A program made the position numbers and the translations under genes. The notes under the pieces were generated by a model, which searched no databases, was not told the origin of the DNA, and worked only from the letters and a program-made list of their open reading frames with translations. A stretch of DNA of 64,000 nt from a virus: the IMG/VR virus record IMGVR_UViG_3300024239_000355, positions 52,378-116,377 of that record. The stretch is one strand, 5' to 3'. Below, piece after piece: positions 4,226-63,708 of the stretch (position 1 is the stretch's first letter; the number at the start of each line of letters is the position of its first letter).

Positions 4226-5482
4226 TTAACCGGCTATTGTTTTTTCATCCTGAACCGTCATGTGGATAGCACCGTCCGTAATTTCATCACTGATATCAAG
4301 GACGGTATCTTCCTTTGGGTTCCGCAAGTTACCAGCCATTGAAACCAGCATCGGCGTGCAAACGAGGCTCAAAACCGCAACACCGGTCCAGAAGTTTGCG
4401 TTCGGCAACAGCGGTGTCGCTGCCGTAATGACGATGAACGAGAATTCACCCGCTTGTGCCAATGTCAACCCGAGACGCAAGCTATTACGCTTACTGATTT
4501 TGATGGTTTGTGCCGCGATGTAGCCAGCGCCAATTTTAAGGGCGATCAAGAGCATCGCCACGCCGACAATTTTTGCCATATCCAGTGCGGGCAACAGAAC
4601 AGGTACTTGGGCGCCCACGCTGATGAAGAATATACCCAGAAACGTCGATTCAAGCGGCTTCATCACGCTCTTCACATCATGGTTCCATGCGGCACCCGCC
4701 ATCGACAATCCCGCAAGGAACGCCCCGAGGCTAGGTGAAAAACCGAAATACATGGATGTCACACCCATCGCCATGGTCGAAGCAATGATGGCTGGTAGAA
4801 AGAACTTGTTGCGGTGTTCGGCGTGGATCATGGAAATCAAGTTGTGTACAACCAGCTTTGATACCACGAAAATCACCGTCATCGTGATAGTGGCAGGAAT
4901 GAGTTTAATATCCCCACCGCCATGTCCATGTCCTTCGCCCGCGTTTTTGACCCCGGCAAGCATGACTAACATCGGAATGACCAACAGAACCAGCGGTACC
5001 ATCAGGTCTTGGAAGAGCAAAACCGATAATGACATCTGACCGTTCTGACCCTTCAACTGCCCAGAATCTTTAAGCATTTGAAGGACGAAGGCAGTGCTTG
5101 ACATCGCGAATGCAATACCAATTGCGATAGAACCATATAGAGACACCCCAAGAACTTTTGCCAGCACCCCAGCCAACACGCCACTGAAAATGAAGTGCGC
5201 CGGTCCTAAACCGAACACGTATTTCGCCATTGATTTCAGTCGATCAGCCGAAAGCTCCACGCCGATTAACAGTAGCAGGAACATGATGCCGACTTCTGAC
5301 ATCACGTATACGATAGTATCGGTCGGTGCAACAATCTTTAAACCACCGGGACCAAATGCAACCCCGGCAGCAATCAGTCCAAGATTTGGGTTCCACTTCA
5401 TGGCAGCAAATGCGGTAGTGATGATAGCCACCGCACCAAACAGCATCGCCACTCCAAGTGCTGCCTGCATGAACTCGGTCAT
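4226..5482 (-). CDS. Monovalent cation:proton antiporter, CPA2/Kef-like, membrane domain only
   Basis: Many hydrophobic segments; SEVGIMFLLLLIGVELS, AMSSTAFV, LLFQDL, LGAFLAG, LAQAGEFSFIV motifs typical of KefB/KefC; no C-terminal KTN/TrkA domain; ATGA overlap with the LysRS stop. Confidence 0.85.
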   Translation of the reverse strand: MTEFMQAALGVAMLFGAVAIITTAFAAMKWNPNLGLIAAGVAFGPGGLKIVAPTDTIVYVMSEVGIMFLLLLIGVELSADRLKSMAKYVFGLGPAHFIFSGVLAGVLAKVLGVSLYGSIAIGIAFAMSSTAFVLQMLKDSGQLKGQNGQMSLSVLLFQDLMVPLVLLVIPMLVMLAGVKNAGEGHGHGGGDIKLIPATITMTVIFVVSKLVVHNLISMIHAEHRNKFFLPAIIASTMAMGVTSMYFGFSPSLGAFLAGLSMAGAAWNHDVKSVMKPLESTFLGIFFISVGAQVPVLLPALDMAKIVGVAMLLIALKIGAGYIAAQTIKISKRNSLRLGLTLAQAGEFSFIVITAATPLLPNANFWTGVAVLSLVCTPMLVSMAGNLRNPKEDTVLDISDEITDGAIHMTVQDEKTIAG

Positions 5483-7053
5483 TGTACCTTCCCCCGAATA
5501 AGAGCAACGCTGTCCTTTATCCCGTAGATGGACACAAAGGTACCAAAGCGCGGACCTTGCGTCTTGCCGAACAACACCTCGTAGATCATCTGGAAGAACT
5601 CACGCAGGCGTTCCTTGCCGTAATGAGCCTTGCCGATCTCGTAGATATGGAACTGGATACCTTCCGCATCCAACCCTTGGTCGAGTGTCGCCAACTGAAT
5701 TGCGAGTGCCAGGAGCGCCGTGCGTTCCTGGGCGTTTGGGGTCTTGAACTGCTTGGTCGGCTCGATCTTGTCCACATAGTAGTTGATCGCGCCACGGATC
5801 ATGTCGTCCATCAACGCACGGCTGCCCTCAGGAACCGTCGTATGCTGGTTGACGAAACCCCACAGCACTTCAGGATCACGGCTGTTGGCGACTTCCACCA
5901 AATTCAGCAGCACCCCGAAGGTGATGTCGAAATTGGCATCAGGCACCGCATGCGGATGGATCAGCGAGATTACCTCGGGCATGCCTTCCACCGCAGACAG
6001 ACGGCAAGACTGCAAGTCCTTCAGATAGGCGTCAACCATCTGCGGGACTACATCAAAGTGAACCTTCTTGGCGGTGGTCGGGTTCTGGTACGCGAAATAC
6101 CAAATGACAGCGGCAGGGGCATACTTGAGCCACCGTTCGAGCGAGAACCCATTTCCTTTGGATTTGGATACCTTGTGACCATCCTTGTCGAGAAAGAGTT
6201 CATAGGTCATCAAAATCGGAGGTTCACGACCCAATGCGCGGCAAATTTCTTCTCCGAGACGGGCGGACGGAATCAAGTCCTTGCCATGCATTTCATAATC
6301 AACGTCAATAGCCACCCAACGGGCAGGCCAGTCCGTCTTCCATTGAAGTTTGCAATCACCATCCAAGATCGAATGGGATACATGCTTCTTGCCGCTTTCG
6401 TCGGTGAACGTCATATAGCGCATATGACGCCCTGGAACGCTCGGGTGAACATATGCATTGCGCACATCATGATGTACACGCCCGTCGATAATCGGCAGGA
6501 ACGGAAACCATGTGTTCTGTCGATCTTCGTTGATGCGACCGAGCGTCGGGAGAACAATGCCCTTAATTGCATGCACGTGGTCCGCAACCAAGTTAAGGGT
6601 CTTGTTATATCGACCCGTCTTATAGGCATCGGTGGCAGACAGGAAAATGTAATCGCGGTTGTTCTTCAACCCCAACTTGGCAAGATAATCCGTCATGCCT
6701 GCGTTTATGTACGCCGCGTAGCTTGAATGATGAGTCCCAAAAATATTCGGGATCATTGATACAGGGACACCAATGTATGGTTCAAGCGCAGCTTGTTGCT
6801 CATCGGTGAAGTTCGTCGGGACTTTGCGCAGTGCGTCGTAATCGTCTGAAACGACATAAAGAATCGTCTTGCGTCCAGTAAGACGTTCAAACGCTCGTCG
6901 TACCATAGTCAGACGCAAAATTTCGGAGACTGATCCGAGATGGACAAGTCCACTCGCCCCGAAACCGGCTTCAAAAACAACTGGACGATCTGAAGGATAA
7001 TCCCGTGTCCGCGCAGCAAGCTGCTCCGCTTGCTCTTGCACCCACGATCCCAT
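5479..7053 (-). CDS. lysS: Class I lysyl-tRNA synthetase
   Basis: GFGASGLVHLGS (HIGH-like), VSDDYDALRKVP, KTDWPARW, EMHGKDL, KVSKSKGN (KMSKS), GKTQGPRFG motifs of LysRS1. Confidence 0.93.
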   Translation of the reverse strand: MGSWVQEQAEQLAARTRDYPSDRPVVFEAGFGASGLVHLGSVSEILRLTMVRRAFERLTGRKTILYVVSDDYDALRKVPTNFTDEQQAALEPYIGVPVSMIPNIFGTHHSSYAAYINAGMTDYLAKLGLKNNRDYIFLSATDAYKTGRYNKTLNLVADHVHAIKGIVLPTLGRINEDRQNTWFPFLPIIDGRVHHDVRNAYVHPSVPGRHMRYMTFTDESGKKHVSHSILDGDCKLQWKTDWPARWVAIDVDYEMHGKDLIPSARLGEEICRALGREPPILMTYELFLDKDGHKVSKSKGNGFSLERWLKYAPAAVIWYFAYQNPTTAKKVHFDVVPQMVDAYLKDLQSCRLSAVEGMPEVISLIHPHAVPDANFDITFGVLLNLVEVANSRDPEVLWGFVNQHTTVPEGSRALMDDMIRGAINYYVDKIEPTKQFKTPNAQERTALLALAIQLATLDQGLDAEGIQFHIYEIGKAHYGKERLREFFQMIYEVLFGKTQGPRFGTFVSIYGIKDSVALIRGKVQ

Positions 7054-7067
7054 CGATATCTCCATCG

Positions 7068-7163
7068 GATAAATAGAAATGAGCAGTAAGGTCTTGGGCG
7101 GGCACCCATGACCAACCGCGACGAGAGAAGCGGCTGTCCTGCTCGTACCTATTTAGACGAGAG
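7068..7163 (+). ncRNA. Putative structured RNA element, copy A, between convergent late promoters upstream of a Zn-repeat endonuclease
   Basis: GATAAATAG-N4-GAGCAG-TAA-[hairpin GGTC.TGGG/CCCA.GACC]-AA-[CCGC loop GCGG]-CTGTC-CTGCTC-N4-CTATTTAG; same architecture at 63232-63331. Confidence 0.7.
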
Positions 7164-7171
7164 GTATCAAC

Positions 7172-8071
7172 GTGTCAAGGAAGAAGACGATCAGCGATTT
7201 TATCGCTGAAGCAATTGCCATTCATGGTGACCGCTACGATTACTCCAATGCAAAATACATTGGGGTCAAAAATCCAATAGAAATCAAATGTAAAGATCAC
7301 GGGTCTTTCTTTCAACGTATACATGTTCATTTGAACGGGCATGGCTGTCCGTTGTGTGGTTCGAACCGAAATTCTGTGGATCGATTTCTGGATAGAGCAA
7401 ACAAAATTCATAAAATGAAATATGATTATTCCAAGGTTCTTTACAAGAACCTAACGACGCCAGTCACCATTATTTGCCAAATCCACGGCGATTTCGATCA
7501 ATGTCCCAGAGATCATTTACAAGGATGTGGATGTCCTAAATGTGCAGGACGCAAAAATACAGAAGAATTTGTGCAACAAGCGCATCGTATTCATGGAGCC
7601 TATTACGATTATTCATCTACCACGTATACGGCTGCAAAACATAATGTGACTATACTGTGCCCGCGTCATGGCACATTCACACAGAAAGCCTATGCACATT
7701 TACGTGGGCAGGGTTGTCCATCGTGTTCCAAATGTTCTTCAAAGGCTGAGCAAGCATGGTTAGATCATCACGGAATTCCCGAGGAATACCGCCAATACCC
7801 AATACGGTTGCCAGAATTCAAACGCCCGCTTGTCGTTGATGGGTTCGACCCATCAACGAACACCGTCTACGAGTTCTACGGTGATTTCTGGCATGGTAAT
7901 CCTGCGTTCTTCGATCAATCTAAACCACATCGAGTCGCATCATCAAGACGGGGTACGTATGGTGACGTTTACAATCGAACACTCAAACGGCAAACAATAT
8001 TAGAGAACAATGGGTATAACGTTAAATGGATATGGGAAAGTGAATGGTTGCAAACGTCAAACCAACGATAA
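7172..8071 (+). CDS. Putative homing endonuclease: tandem CxxH/CxxC Zn repeats (DUF723-like) plus Vsr/EDxHD-like nuclease domain
   Basis: Three YDYS...I.C..HG.F.Q....HL.G.GCP.C repeats; C-terminal VDGFD...VYEFYGDFWHG; GTG start with SD GAGG. Confidence 0.8.
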   Translation: MSRKKTISDFIAEAIAIHGDRYDYSNAKYIGVKNPIEIKCKDHGSFFQRIHVHLNGHGCPLCGSNRNSVDRFLDRANKIHKMKYDYSKVLYKNLTTPVTIICQIHGDFDQCPRDHLQGCGCPKCAGRKNTEEFVQQAHRIHGAYYDYSSTTYTAAKHNVTILCPRHGTFTQKAYAHLRGQGCPSCSKCSSKAEQAWLDHHGIPEEYRQYPIRLPEFKRPLVVDGFDPSTNTVYEFYGDFWHGNPAFFDQSKPHRVASSRRGTYGDVYNRTLKRQTILENNGYNVKWIWESEWLQTSNQR

Positions 8072-62071: not shown

Positions 62072-63226
62072 CTACAAGCACACCGGGATGCACCGTCGAA
62101 TGTTGTGGTAACGGCTGTCTGGAATTTCTCGAAGGAAAACCGCCGTCTCGTGCTTAATTTTGTCAAAGTCAGTTTCCCAGATATAGACTAAATTGTACCC
62201 TCCGTTGATAATTTTTCGTTCCCGCTCAATGGTCTTTCGAAACAAATCCCCGTAAGAATGCTTGTTGGAGCGATTAATTTCGGTCGGATGATATATTTCC
62301 GGGTTACCATGCCAATAATCCCCATAAAACTCGTAGACCGTATTACTGTGTGGATCAAAACCATCCACACGAACCCACACCCCATCATCGAATTGAAGTT
62401 TATACTCGATGAATTCTTTCCCAACTTGATACAATGACAACCAGTCATTTTGTTTCTTTGTCATACTACAAGATGGACACCCCCGCCCCTGTAAATGTCC
62501 CAAAGGACGTTGTTCAAACAATCCATGTTGCGGGCAAATAATTTTCACTTTCGTCGTGGAATCCTCATATGAAACCAAGTTGTAATCATATTTGTTCCCA
62601 TGCACCATACGTGATCTGGTAATAAAAATTTCAGTAGTAAGGAACATCGACTCATATACACACTTAGGACAGTTTGCTCCACCCAAATGTTCTTCGGGAG
62701 TTTGCTCGAACAACCCATGTTTATGACATATTATTTGTACTTTAGTCCTGTTGTTAGTGTAATCAACCATCGAGTAATTATATCGATCCTGATGTACTTT
62801 CGTGGCGGCTAAAACAAAATCTTTGGTTGTTCTCCGTTGATTATTAGCACATTTCGGACATCCATGTTTACTACTGATATGTTTATTTGGCATTTGAAAG
62901 AACTCTCCATGTTCCGCACAAATAATTCTAACTGGCGTTTTATTATTACAATACACCACATTAGAATAATCATATCGATTTCCATGCACAACCGTAGCTC
63001 GTTGTATAAAATCATCAGTGGTTAGGGTGTCCTTTCCGCTACATTTCATACACCCCTTGCCACAAAGATGGTTAGATGGTAATTGCTCAAAATCACCATG
63101 CTCATGGCAGGTAATTATTACTTTTACAGTTTGTTTAACGTATTTGGTATGAGAGTAGTCATATTTGTCGCCGTGAATAGCTTTGCATTCAGCGATAAAG
63201 TGTTCTGTTGTTTTTCTTGATGACAT
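62072..63226 (-). CDS. Putative homing endonuclease: four Zn repeats (DUF723-like) plus Vsr/EDxHD-like domain; paralogue of 7172-8071
   Basis: YDYS...I.C..HG.F.Q.P..H..G.GC..C x4; VDGFD...VYEFYGDYWHGNP. Confidence 0.8.
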   Translation of the reverse strand: MSSRKTTEHFIAECKAIHGDKYDYSHTKYVKQTVKVIITCHEHGDFEQLPSNHLCGKGCMKCSGKDTLTTDDFIQRATVVHGNRYDYSNVVYCNNKTPVRIICAEHGEFFQMPNKHISSKHGCPKCANNQRRTTKDFVLAATKVHQDRYNYSMVDYTNNRTKVQIICHKHGLFEQTPEEHLGGANCPKCVYESMFLTTEIFITRSRMVHGNKYDYNLVSYEDSTTKVKIICPQHGLFEQRPLGHLQGRGCPSCSMTKKQNDWLSLYQVGKEFIEYKLQFDDGVWVRVDGFDPHSNTVYEFYGDYWHGNPEIYHPTEINRSNKHSYGDLFRKTIERERKIINGGYNLVYIWETDFDKIKHETAVFLREIPDSRYHNIRRCIPVCL

Positions 63227-63231
63227 GTTTT

Positions 63232-63331
63232 ACACCTGCTAAATAGACCCATGCGGGACAGCCCTCTCAACACCTGCGAGGGTTTTATCGAGGGGTAGGA
63301 GCCTCGATAATTACCGCTATCTCTATTTATC
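63232..63331 (-). ncRNA. Putative structured RNA element, copy B
   Basis: Minus strand: GATAAATAG-N4-AGCGG-TAA-[TTATCGAGG/CCTCGATAA]-AA-[CCCTC loop GAGGG]-CTGTC-CCGC-N6-CTATTTAG. Confidence 0.7.
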
Positions 63332-63447: not shown

Positions 63448-63708
63448 ATGTTCGGCTTTATCAGACAGATCATTCGCGACCTTCGCACCCCGGATACACC
63501 GGTAAACATCGAGAAGGCGCATCGCGAGTCCTACAATCGTGCCCGGATGGGTACCGACAATCTGACCGAAGCGCAATTGAGCCGTCCAGTTCCGCAAAAA
63601 AAGTCGGAGCCGAAAACAGTTCCGGCTCCGACTAACAATGATGACGACATCTGGGCAGTCGTTAACGCGGAAATCGACCGCCGACTTGCCGAGGATGCTA
63701 AGAAGTAG
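63448..63708 (+). CDS. Hypothetical protein
   Basis: Promoter TTGACA-N17-TACTAT (~63392-63420) and RBS AAGGAGG. Confidence 0.6.
   Translation: MFGFIRQIIRDLRTPDTPVNIEKAHRESYNRARMGTDNLTEAQLSRPVPQKKSEPKTVPAPTNNDDDIWAVVNAEIDRRLAEDAKK

What the first reader, a model, noticed from the sequence alone, without database searches (positions are those of the whole stretch)
7068..7175. Conserved three-stem element in front of both Zn-repeat endonucleases; its loop 8-mer is copied next to each gene's own Shine-Dalgarno
Seen: the same architecture lies at 7068-7163 (+) and 63232-63331 (-): GATAAATAG-N4-P1-TAA-P2 hairpin-AA-P3 hairpin-CTGTC-P1'-CTATTTAG. The stems differ in sequence but keep pairing (P1 GCAG/CTGC vs GCGG/CCGC; P3 CCGC/GCGG vs CCCTC/GAGGG). 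In copy A the first 8 nt of the P3 loop (GACGAGAG, 7120-7127) are repeated exactly right after CTATTTA (7156-7163). In copy B a different 8-mer (GCAGGTGT, 63277-63270) is repeated at the equivalent position (63239-63232). Both downstream 8-mers overlap the SD (GAGG, AGGTG). The element is bracketed by convergent TAAATA late promoters. Inference: a programmable-loop RNA tied to this nuclease family. One model is an antisense RNA from the reverse promoter that presents an anti-SD loop to silence a toxic nuclease. Another is an RNA whose loop specifies a DNA site next to a fixed TATTTA motif (guide- or bridge-like autoregulation or targeting). I know of no described family with this layout.
Basis: partly seen in the sequence, partly recalled or inferred. 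Interest (0 to 1): 0.9.

Follow-up and report, generated by a model that had tools for sequence, protein, structure and literature searches.

The report
Start-site-matched RNA leader of selfish nucleases
A folded ~85-base cassette sits in front of selfish DNA-cutting-enzyme genes of many unrelated families in T4-like phages; one loop always copies the ribosome landing site of the gene behind it, which points to a re-programmable, probably antisense, brake on translation.

Summary
The genome (195 kb, T4-like, subsurface metagenome) has four copies, not two. I collected 53 distinct copies from uncultured T4-like phages (28-55% GC), plus four more from whole-genome scans.

All share four features:
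- TAAATA motifs in inverted orientation as the outer arms.
- Three covarying stems, P1 to P3.
- Near-invariant junction bases.
- A P3 loop holding a 6-10 nt copy of the downstream gene's translation-initiation region (Shine-Dalgarno plus non-SD flank, or the start codon itself).

The longest shared word between loop and own start site averages 7.25 nt, against 4.5 nt for other elements' start sites. No other loop or flank shows such a match.

The element is not tied to the Zn-repeat nuclease. It precedes GIY-YIG, HNH, Vsr/DUF559-like, endonuclease-I-like and TnpB genes. It is absent upstream of the 80 closest homologues of that nuclease. No Rfam family matches.

Best reading (about 0.4): the region is transcribed on both strands. 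The opposite-strand RNA folds into the mirror structure and displays an anti-start-site loop that represses its own nuclease. A guide- or bridge-like role is unsupported.

Other agents in this scan noted comparable nuclease-leader cassettes in other genomes. Whether they are the same family is untested.

The parts
7068..7076 (+). Copy A: forward late-promoter-like motif GATAAATAG, the 5' arm of the outer stem P0
   Evidence: Sequence. TAAATA is kept in 50 of 53 homologues. ATAAATA is about 2-fold enriched in this genome and usually lies 20-40 nt before ORF starts.
7079..7146 (+). Copy A: three-way junction. P1 is 7079-7086 paired with 7139-7146. J1/2 is TAA at 7087-7089. The P2 hairpin is 7090-7113. 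J2/3 is AA at 7114-7115. P3 is 7116-7119 paired with 7130-7133. J3/1 is CTGTC at 7134-7138.
   Evidence: MFE fold, covariance-model hit of 50.4 bits, covariation statistics.
7120..7127 (+). Copy A: 8-mer GACGAGAG at the 5' side of the P3 loop, a copy of the start-site region
7149..7155 (+). Copy A: CTATTTA, the 3' arm of P0. On the minus strand it reads TAAATAG, a candidate late promoter facing the lysyl-tRNA synthetase gene.
   Evidence: Sequence. The reverse hexamer is TAAATA in 46 of 53 homologues.
7156..7174 (+). Copy A: translation-initiation region of the nuclease gene. The 8-mer GACGAGAG is at 7156-7163 and overlaps the SD GAGAGG. The GTG start is at 7172-7174.
7172..8071 (+). Nuclease A: 299 aa, three Zn-ribbon (DUF723/DUF4379-like) repeats plus a Vsr/PD-(D/E)xK-like C-terminal domain
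   Evidence: phrog_559 at E 2.5e-44; PF05265
5479..7065 (-). Divergent neighbour of copy A: class I lysyl-tRNA synthetase. Its start codon (7065, or more likely 7053, which has a GGAG before it) lies 2-14 nt from the element. Its mRNA must therefore begin inside or beyond the element and carry the element's antisense as leader.
   Evidence: PF01921 at E 4e-85; sequence
63323..63331 (-). Copy B: forward late-promoter-like motif GATAAATAG (P0 5' arm)
63253..63317 (-). Copy B: three-way junction. P1 is 63317-63314 paired with 63256-63253. TAA is at 63313-63311. P2 is 63310-63285. AA is at 63284-63283. P3 is 63282-63278 paired with 63266-63262. CTGTC is at 63261-63257.
   Evidence: MFE fold; covariance-model hit of 57.6 bits
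63270..63277 (-). Copy B: 8-mer GCAGGTGT at the 5' side of the P3 loop
63240..63246 (-). Copy B: CTATTTA (P0 3' arm), which reads TAAATAG on the opposite strand
63224..63239 (-). Copy B: initiation region. The 8-mer GCAGGTGT is at 63239-63232 (SD AGGTG). The ATG is at 63226-63224.
62072..63226 (-). Nuclease B: 384 aa, four Zn-ribbon repeats plus a Vsr-like domain (paralogue of A)
   Evidence: phrog_559 at E 1.5e-74
63448..63708 (+). Divergent neighbour of copy B: 86-aa ORF with an AAGGAGG SD, starting 116 nt from the element

Best explanation
The element is a portable expression-control cassette for selfish nuclease genes (homing endonucleases and TnpB) in T4-like phages. Its 5' arm is the gene's own late promoter (NATAAATA). 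The region between the two inverted TAAATA motifs is transcribed in both directions. The opposite-strand transcript starts at the inverted TAAATA and/or comes from read-through of the neighbouring genes, which mostly lie on that strand. It folds into the mirror-image three-way junction. Its P3 hairpin then displays, on the 3' side of the loop, 6-10 nt that are exactly complementary to the ribosome-binding region of the nuclease mRNA. That region lies just outside the overlap of the two transcripts. Loop-to-start-site pairing (about -12 kcal/mol) would block 30S binding and keep the nuclease low, specifically for the cognate gene even when a genome carries 4-6 cassettes. Shown: the structure, its covariation, the loop/start-site identity, the multi-family association, the strand bias of the neighbours, and the lack of room for a neighbour's promoter outside the element. 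Inferred: that TAAATA is used as a promoter on either strand, that the antisense RNA accumulates, and that it represses translation.
For: 1. Identity implies a complementary partner. The copied block covers whatever the ribosome needs: SD plus non-SD flank in 37 of 46 cases and the start codon itself in 5 SD-less cases. The three non-SD bases 5' of the SD core are 90% identical to the own gene's against 28% for other genes', with 19 different triplets. This is base-pair-type specificity, not mere SD-likeness.
2. No complementary sequence exists in cis on the sense RNA within 150 nt either side. The only complement is the other strand.
3. Antisense transcription is hard to avoid. The upstream neighbour is on the opposite strand in 35 of 45 loci. 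Its start codon is only 2-40 nt from the element in 9 loci, including all but one copy in this genome. So that gene's promoter must lie in or beyond the element. The downstream neighbour is also mostly on the opposite strand (18 against 9).
4. The 3' arm reads TAAATA on the reverse strand in 46 of 53 copies, although neither that arm nor the downstream sequence was constrained by either search pattern.
5. The strand test favours antisense. Internal A.C pairs, which are G.U on the antisense strand, outnumber G.U pairs by 30 to 15 over distinct helices (p = 0.036). The antisense fold is more stable in 39 of 53 copies (p = 0.002). In P3 the count is 9 against 2. Five of the seven reverse-arm variants are T-to-C changes that keep P0 paired only on the antisense RNA.
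6. Cognate antisense-loop:start-site duplexes average -12.4 kcal/mol against -6.9 for non-cognate pairs. The four copies in this genome and all but the two TnpB-linked copies in the 543-kb phage carry different words.
Against: There is no transcript evidence. The genome comes from a subsurface metagenome with no RNA runs. In lake metatranscriptomes, a relative's element and nuclease gene are not covered by any RNA contig, and only the neighbouring gene is. The strand asymmetry is modest, partly reflects base composition (sense G+T = 0.47), and is not corrected for phylogeny. A first impression that loop/start-site mismatches are always A-versus-G did not hold in a systematic count of first mismatches. 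Seven of 53 copies have a mutated reverse TAAATA yet keep the loop copy. An antisense RNA fully complementary to the leader would pair with the leader anyway, so the need for an extra loop copy is argued, not shown. A-rich junctions and an A-rich P2 loop 3' end look more like a sense-strand RNA fold. The near-invariant junction bases are not explained by simple antisense pairing.
Confidence: 0.4

Rival explanations
1. Sense-strand start-site mimic acting in cis. The P3 loop on the nuclease mRNA's own leader presents a second copy of the ribosome-binding region. It either traps 30S subunits non-productively (decoy, lowering translation) or holds them as a standby site (raising it).
For: The copy is on the same RNA as the gene, 33-38 nt upstream, and lies in a hairpin loop. 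37 of 46 copies contain an SD-like core. A-rich junctions fit a folded sense RNA. The forward promoter is the best-conserved feature (50 of 53).
Against: A ribosome decoy needs only the SD core, yet the non-SD flank is 90% identical. In SD-less genes the loop copies the AUG region instead. In a third of distinct P3 helices the sense stem carries an A.C mismatch that is a G.U on the other strand. In several copies the sense fold pairs the copy in an alternative register.
Confidence: 0.2
2. Anti-antisense decoy. Because the nuclease gene usually lies backwards within its neighbours' transcription unit, read-through RNA is antisense to its start site. The sense P3 loop mimics the start site and soaks up that antisense segment, protecting nuclease translation. 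This would be a selfish counter-measure.
For: Both neighbours lie mostly on the opposite strand (35 of 45 upstream, 18 of 27 downstream). The identity of loop and start site fits a competitor.
Against: The stoichiometry is one decoy per start site. The copy is kept in the 10 loci whose upstream gene is co-directional and ends in a terminator. The strand test favours an antisense P3.
Confidence: 0.1
3. An ordinary T4-type translational lock only. In long transcripts the outer stem closes the structure against the ribosome-binding site. The late promoter in its 5' arm gives RNAs that cannot form it. The loop copy would be a by-product.
For: The late-promoter motif in the 5' strand of a helix directly abutting the SD is the layout described for T4 e, I-TevI, segB and Aeh1 mobE. 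The closest case is seg43(25) of Aeromonas phage 25, where a stable hairpin ends just before an unsequestered RBS (PMC2988022, PMC3014915). In copies A and B, upstream bases extend the helix into the SD.
Against: The SD is not inside any conserved helix. Predicted start-site accessibility differs little between long and late-start RNAs (0.47 against 0.52). Upstream genes are mostly divergent, so sense read-through is unlikely. A by-product would not be maintained across 53 diverged copies with 19 different flank triplets.
Confidence: 0.1
4. A DNA-level signal: a folded-DNA or repeated-word site used in cassette mobility, recombination or nuclease autoregulation (operator-like, as for I-TevI).
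For: G.U pairs are very rare on both strands (1.7% of pairs), as expected if both strands or DNA must pair. The element marks the left boundary of a presence/absence polymorphism of the nuclease gene (L020 against L035). I-TevI binds an operator over its late promoter (PMC2988022).
Against: The repeated word always coincides with the SD or AUG, which a DNA site need not do. There is no third copy at the far end of the gene. Six unrelated nuclease types, including RNA-guided TnpB, cannot share one DNA-recognition logic.
Confidence: 0.07
5. Guide- or bridge-like RNA. The loop specifies a DNA site next to a fixed TATTTA motif for targeting or recombination.
For: Loop sequence equals flank sequence, as in the target loops of IS110 bridge RNAs (own knowledge). 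The loop is 'programmable' across copies.
Against: The word is not at a fixed distance from TATTTA (0-22 nt). Only one loop has any match. There is no recombinase or common protein partner. The nuclease's closest homologues lack the element.
Confidence: 0.03

Closest known systems
Leader hairpins with an embedded late promoter in front of T-even homing-endonuclease and late genes (T4 e, soc, 49, I-TevI/II/III, segB; Aeh1 mobE; the unsequestering hairpin of seg43(25) in Aeromonas phage 25). Sources: PMC2988022, PMC3014915.
   Same: It occurs in T4-like phages. A TATAAATA-type motif forms the 5' strand of a helix that ends at the ribosome-binding site of a nuclease gene. The presumed purpose is to keep a selfish nuclease low or late.
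   Different: Here the helix encloses a sequence-conserved three-way junction shared by many nuclease families and phage lineages. The SD is not paired. The second arm is itself an inverted promoter motif. One loop copies the start site. Upstream genes are mostly divergent rather than co-transcribed.
IS10/Tn10 RNA-IN/RNA-OUT, and similar cis-antisense control of selfish genes
   Same: Face-to-face promoters at the 5' end of a selfish gene. A stem-loop antisense RNA whose loop nucleates pairing with the ribosome-binding region.
   Different: RNA-OUT physically overlaps the start site. Here the predicted antisense RNA starts upstream of it, and complementarity is supplied by a separate loop copy. 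The scaffold is a three-way junction, not a single hairpin. Transcription is unproven.
Rfam int-alpA motif (RF02996). An earlier agent in this scan reported it as a Y-shaped leader of endonuclease cassettes with a loop matching the ribosome-binding region.
   Same: A Y-shaped leader before selfish genes. By that note, it has the same loop-equals-RBS property.
   Different: It is not the same family. There is no RF02996 match to any copy at E up to 5-10, nor anywhere in this genome.
IS110-family bridge RNA, and TnpB/IscB omega RNA (HEARO) (own knowledge).
   Same: A structured RNA next to a mobile-element nuclease or recombinase, with variable loop or guide sequences that match nearby DNA. Three copies here precede TnpB genes.
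   Different: The element lies 5' of the gene, whereas the omega RNA lies at the 3' end. The match is to the gene's own start site, with a single matched loop. It is shared with protein-only nucleases. No Rfam hit.

Membership tests
T4-type RBS-sequestering leader hairpin with embedded late promoter | Late-promoter motif (TATAAATA-like) within the 5' strand of the helix | tested here: met
   TAAATA is in the 5' arm in 50 of 53 copies. The motif is enriched before ORFs in this genome. The carriers encode a gp23-type capsid protein. Promoter activity itself was not tested.
T4-type RBS-sequestering leader hairpin with embedded late promoter | SD and/or start codon base-paired inside the helix in long transcripts | tested here: not met
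   The start-site block begins 0-22 nt after the last paired base. Predicted unpaired probability is 0.47 in long RNAs against 0.52 in late-start RNAs.
T4-type RBS-sequestering leader hairpin with embedded late promoter | Gene lies on a polycistronic early or middle transcript from upstream genes | tested here: not met
   The upstream neighbour is on the opposite strand in 35 of 45 loci.
Cis-antisense control (IS10 RNA-OUT type) | Convergent promoter giving an antisense RNA | tested here: inconclusive
   An inverted TAAATA is present in 46 of 53 copies, and the neighbours' start codons leave no room for another promoter. No RNA data exist.
Cis-antisense control (IS10 RNA-OUT type) | Antisense RNA overlaps the target's ribosome-binding site | tested here: not met
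   The inverted TAAATA lies upstream of the start site. Complementarity comes only from the loop copy.
Rfam int-alpA (RF02996) | Covariance-model score at or above the gathering score (35.8 bits) | tested here: not met
   No match at E up to 10 in the window region, in 8 other loci or in the whole genome.
IS110 bridge RNA / guide RNA | Adjacent cognate recombinase or a single conserved effector protein | tested here: not met
   The downstream genes are GIY-YIG, HNH, DUF559/Vsr-like, Endo-I-like, DUF723-type and TnpB.
IS110 bridge RNA / guide RNA | Two loops matching target and donor DNA at fixed positions | tested here: not met
   Only P3 matches anything. The match moves with the start site.

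The most novel reading that the evidence does not exclude
The three-way junction, with its near-invariant junction bases (GGUAAU, AAACC, GGCUGUCCC), is a protein- or ribosome-recognised scaffold. Its P3 loop would be a freely re-programmable specificity module. That would make it a natural, portable 'plug-in' RNA repressor that any selfish gene can adopt by rewriting 8 nt, working as an RNP rather than by plain antisense pairing.
Probability: 0.15. Interest if true: 0.85.

Novelty: new variant of a known kind. Interest (0 to 1): 0.7.

Why it matters
Homing endonucleases and TnpB are the raw material of genome-editing tools and major drivers of phage genome mosaicism. How a phage tolerates many of them is only understood for a few T4 genes. 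This cassette shows three things:
- One regulatory module is shared horizontally among at least six unrelated nuclease families.
- It carries its own promoter and, probably, a replacement promoter for the neighbour it displaced.
- It has an 8-10 nt field that co-varies with the start site of whichever gene follows.

That gives a directly testable natural design for gene-specific translational repression. It also gives a sequence signature (covariance model R2) for finding mobile nuclease cassettes, and their remnants, in uncultured T4-like phages.

Tried and rejected
- **Upstream ORF coupling.** I tested whether the loop's SD or AUG starts an ORF that ends at the main start codon. Stop positions and frames are scattered. 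Rejected.
- **Cis partner.** I looked for a sequence complementary to the 8-mer within 150 nt either side on the sense RNA. No consistent site was found.
- **Target-site duplication.** There is no third copy of the word after the nuclease gene.
- **Mismatch asymmetry.** Several hand-read cases suggested that loop/start-site mismatches are always loop-A against site-G, which would be U.G wobble for an antisense loop. The systematic first-mismatch tally is symmetric, 9 against 8. Only four internal cases remain (L014, L021, L031/L096, L441). These are confounded by selection for G in the SD, so I do not use this as evidence.
- **Reciprocal control.** I tested whether the P2 loop, or any complement, matches the neighbour's start site. 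It does not.
- **Known families.** There is no Rfam match, including ribozymes and int-alpA.
- **Isolate phages.** The window region and a relative's locus have no close match in 50,697 phage records; only tRNA genes match.
- **RNA evidence.** No RNA run holds the window. For relative L013, four lake metatranscriptomes give contigs only over the neighbouring gene (L013 3405-3880). None covers the element or the nuclease gene. This is uninformative, not negative.
- **Bacterial and archaeal genomes.** None of 80 pattern hits is a real element.
- **Alignment.** MAFFT alignments of the copies were not structurally sound. I seeded the covariance model from two near-equal-length copies with a hand-written structure instead.
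Full report
**1. What is in the window**

- Copy A is at 7068-7163 on the plus strand. Copy B is at 63331-63232 on the minus strand.
- Both have the same order of parts:
  - GATAAATAG, a short linker, then the P1 5' strand.
  - TAA, then the P2 hairpin.
  - AA, then the P3 hairpin.
  - CTGTC, then the P1 3' strand and a linker.
  - CTATTTA, an 8-mer, about 8 nt, then the start codon.
- The 8-mers are GACGAGAG for A and GCAGGTGT for B.
- Each 8-mer occurs right after the 5' strand of P3 and again right after CTATTTA. Neither occurs elsewhere nearby.
- Thermodynamic folding returns this four-helix layout as the minimum-energy structure for both copies.
- The genes behind them are paralogous phage endonucleases. 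They have three or four Zn-ribbon repeats and a Vsr-like domain (phrog_559, PF05265/PF14311).

**2. The genome and further copies**

- The window is part of a 195-kb single contig at 49% GC.
- The contig comes from a subsurface metagenome and encodes a T4 gp23-type capsid protein.
- ATAAATA is about twice as frequent as expected. It usually lies 20-40 nt before ORF starts, as expected for T4-type late promoters (established for T4: PMC3014915).
- Two more copies lie outside the window.
  - Copy C is at genome 30592-30671, before a truncated HNH gene. Its word is TCGGTGAA.
  - Copy D is at genome 23362-23448, before a frameshifted Zn-finger/HNH gene. Its word is CAGAGGA.
- So all four copies obey the loop-equals-start-site rule, each with a different word.
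- In three of the four, the divergent upstream gene starts only 2-20 nt from the element. For copy B the distance is 116 nt.

**3. A widespread family**

- I ran two pattern scans of IMG/VR. One used only junction bases. The other used the forward motif plus junction bases.
- I also scanned metagenome contigs once, then confirmed hits with covariance models.
- This gave 53 distinct elements of 71-92 nt and 28-55% GC.
- Five large carrier contigs (165-543 kb) all encode gp23-type capsid proteins. They hold 1-6 copies each.
- Covariation is strong:
  - 95.5% of cells are paired, against 76% in shuffles.
  - There are 235 cells with changes on both sides, against 65 in shuffles (0 of 500 shuffles reach this).
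  - All eight P2 pairs and three of four P1 pairs show compensatory changes.
  - Register-shift controls collapse.
- P3 also covaries: CCCAG/CTGGG, CCTAC/GTAGG, CCTT/AAGG, CCAACT/AGTTGG, CCGC/GCGG, CCCTC/GAGGG.
- The junction bases GGTAAT, AAACC and GGCTGTCCC are close to invariant. More distant copies found by the model alone relax them to NTGTCCC.
- No Rfam 15 family matches.

**4. The loop rule**

- *Size of the effect.* The longest word shared between P3 and the 40 nt downstream averages 7.25 nt for an element and its own gene.
  - It averages 4.51 nt for other elements' genes.
  - It averages 4.13 nt when a P1/P2 segment is used instead.
  - 75% of cognate pairs share 7 nt or more, against 7.4% of non-cognate pairs.
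- *Specificity.* Nothing comparable holds for the P2 loop, for complements, or for the upstream flank.
- *Position.* The block ends 3-9 nt before the start codon in 40 of 46 cases, which is SD spacing.
  - It contains the start codon itself in 5 cases where no SD is present. These are the TnpB genes, L057 and L084.
  - It usually starts right after TATTTA, but moves 9-22 nt away when the start site does.
- *Flank identity.* The three bases 5' of the SD core do not pair with 16S rRNA. They are 90% identical between loop and own start site, against 28% for other genes. There are 19 different triplets.
- *Independent test.* Copies found without any pattern constraint obey the rule too: L438 with ACTAGGGT, L440 with GCAAGGAAG, L441 with 8 of 9 bases, and copy D.

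This is real co-variation between two unpaired, identical segments. The only general reader of an arbitrary 8-mer is a complementary nucleic acid.

**5. Not tied to one nuclease**

The downstream genes include:
- GIY-YIG (PF01541, SegE-type).
- HNH (PF01844, PF13392).
- HNH-repeat plus endonuclease-I-like.
- DUF559/Vsr-like.
- The DUF723/DUF4379 type.
- Several PHROG 'endonuclease' families.
- Bona fide TnpB (PF01385, PF07282, PF12323), seen in three contigs.

Conversely, none of the 80 closest relatives of nuclease B in viral contigs has the element within 1.2 kb, with either model. A nuclease-less allele (L020) keeps the element and a remnant of the SD word. The homology break falls right after that word.

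**6. Which strand?**

There is no cis complement of the word on the sense RNA. The following points bear on the opposite strand.
- *Neighbour orientation.* The upstream neighbour is on the opposite strand in 35 of 45 loci. The downstream neighbour is on the opposite strand in 18 of 27. The cassette typically sits backwards among its neighbours.
- *No room for a promoter.* In 9 loci the upstream gene's start codon is 2-40 nt from the element. For copy A it is the class I LysRS gene. That gene's transcript must therefore start in or beyond the element and carry its antisense.
- *Reverse motif.* The 3' arm reads TAAATA on the reverse strand in 46 of 53 copies.
- *Pair types.* Non-Watson-Crick pairs are rare. 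Those present favour the antisense strand: A.C 30 against G.U 15 over distinct helices (p = 0.036), and 9 against 2 in P3.
- *Fold stability.* The antisense fold is more stable in 39 of 53 copies (p = 0.002).
- *Arm variants.* Five of the seven variants of the reverse arm are T-to-C changes. These break the promoter motif but keep pairing only in an antisense RNA that spans both arms.
- *Outer stem as a helix.* One promoter-less variant (L177) replaces both outer arms with a different, perfectly complementary 10-bp helix. So the outer stem is a real helix as well as a pair of motifs.
- *Pairing energy.* The antisense P3 loop would pair with its own gene's start site at about -12.4 kcal/mol, against -6.9 for non-cognate sites.

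These points make an antisense, loop-presented anti-start-site RNA the best reading. All of them are indirect, the statistics are modest, and they are not corrected for phylogeny.

**7. What argues otherwise**

- Predicted start-site accessibility barely differs between long and late-start sense RNAs. So the classical T4 lock is not evident.
- The layout still resembles that lock, especially the unsequestering hairpin of seg43(25) (PMC2988022).
- A-rich junctions suit a sense fold.
- The invariant junction bases are unexplained by plain antisense pairing and hint at a protein or tertiary contact.
- No RNA data could be obtained.
- A cis decoy or standby role, an anti-antisense decoy, and a DNA-level role therefore remain open, with the weights given under rival explanations.

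**8. Comparison and novelty**

The kind is known: post-transcriptional control of T4-family homing-endonuclease genes by a structured leader with an embedded late promoter (PMC2988022, PMC3014915). Antisense control of selfish genes is also known (IS10; own knowledge).

What is new here:
- A sequence-conserved three-way junction shared across many nuclease families and phage lineages.
- Inverted promoter motifs serving as its outer arms.
- A loop that is rewritten to equal each gene's start site.

Other agents of this scan reported nuclease-leader cassettes read as antisense RNAs (e1-3294369, e1-3482524). Another reported an int-alpA-type leader whose loop matches the RBS (e1-3035393). My elements are not int-alpA. 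I could not test identity with the other two; a sequence look-up found no overlap.

I rate this a new variant of a known kind, with interest 0.7.

Noticed in passing
window 5479-7065 (-): A phage-encoded class I lysyl-tRNA synthetase (PF01921, E 4e-85). Its likely start is at 7053, preceded by GGAG. It lies directly against the element, so its promoter must lie inside the nuclease cassette.
   Followed up: partly
genome 23362-23448 (L445) and 30592-30671 (L005:1093-1172), outside the window: Two more copies of the element in the same genome. One is before a frameshifted Zn-finger/HNH gene (frame 0 for about 50 codons, then frame +2 with the HVDH...N motif). The other is before an HNH gene that loses similarity after about 35 codons. 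Both are decaying nuclease genes that keep an intact leader.
   Followed up: partly
L062:1620-2884, L054:11740-13004, L147:700-787: The same leader precedes full-length TnpB (OrfB_IS605) genes. Two are in a 543-kb jumbo T4-like phage and one is in another contig. Here the loop copies GCAGATG, which includes the start codon. No TnpA or omega RNA was looked for.
   Followed up: partly
L177:561-631 (-): A variant without promoter motifs. The outer arms and P1 are replaced by one continuous, different 10-bp helix, while the junction bases, P2 and P3 are kept. No start-site copy is detectable. It is a single 1-kb metagenome contig.
   Followed up: no
L020:8468-8552 (-) against L035: A presence/absence polymorphism. 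L020 has the element followed after 8 nt by a convergent tRNA gene. L035 has an ~860-nt nuclease ORF inserted at exactly that point, and two cassettes in tandem.
   Followed up: partly
L003, L063, L084, L021, L018, L049: Many cassettes sit inside phage tRNA gene clusters. L049 also has a permuted alpha-type tmRNA gene about 300 nt from the element (RF04321, 68.9 bits).
   Followed up: no
L063:1821-1933 (+): A Y-RNA-like (YrlA, RF02553) match at 37.9 bits, E 4e-5, below the gathering score of 69. It lies within a phage tRNA cluster.
   Followed up: no
So not every nuclease gene of this phage uses the cassette.
   Followed up: partly
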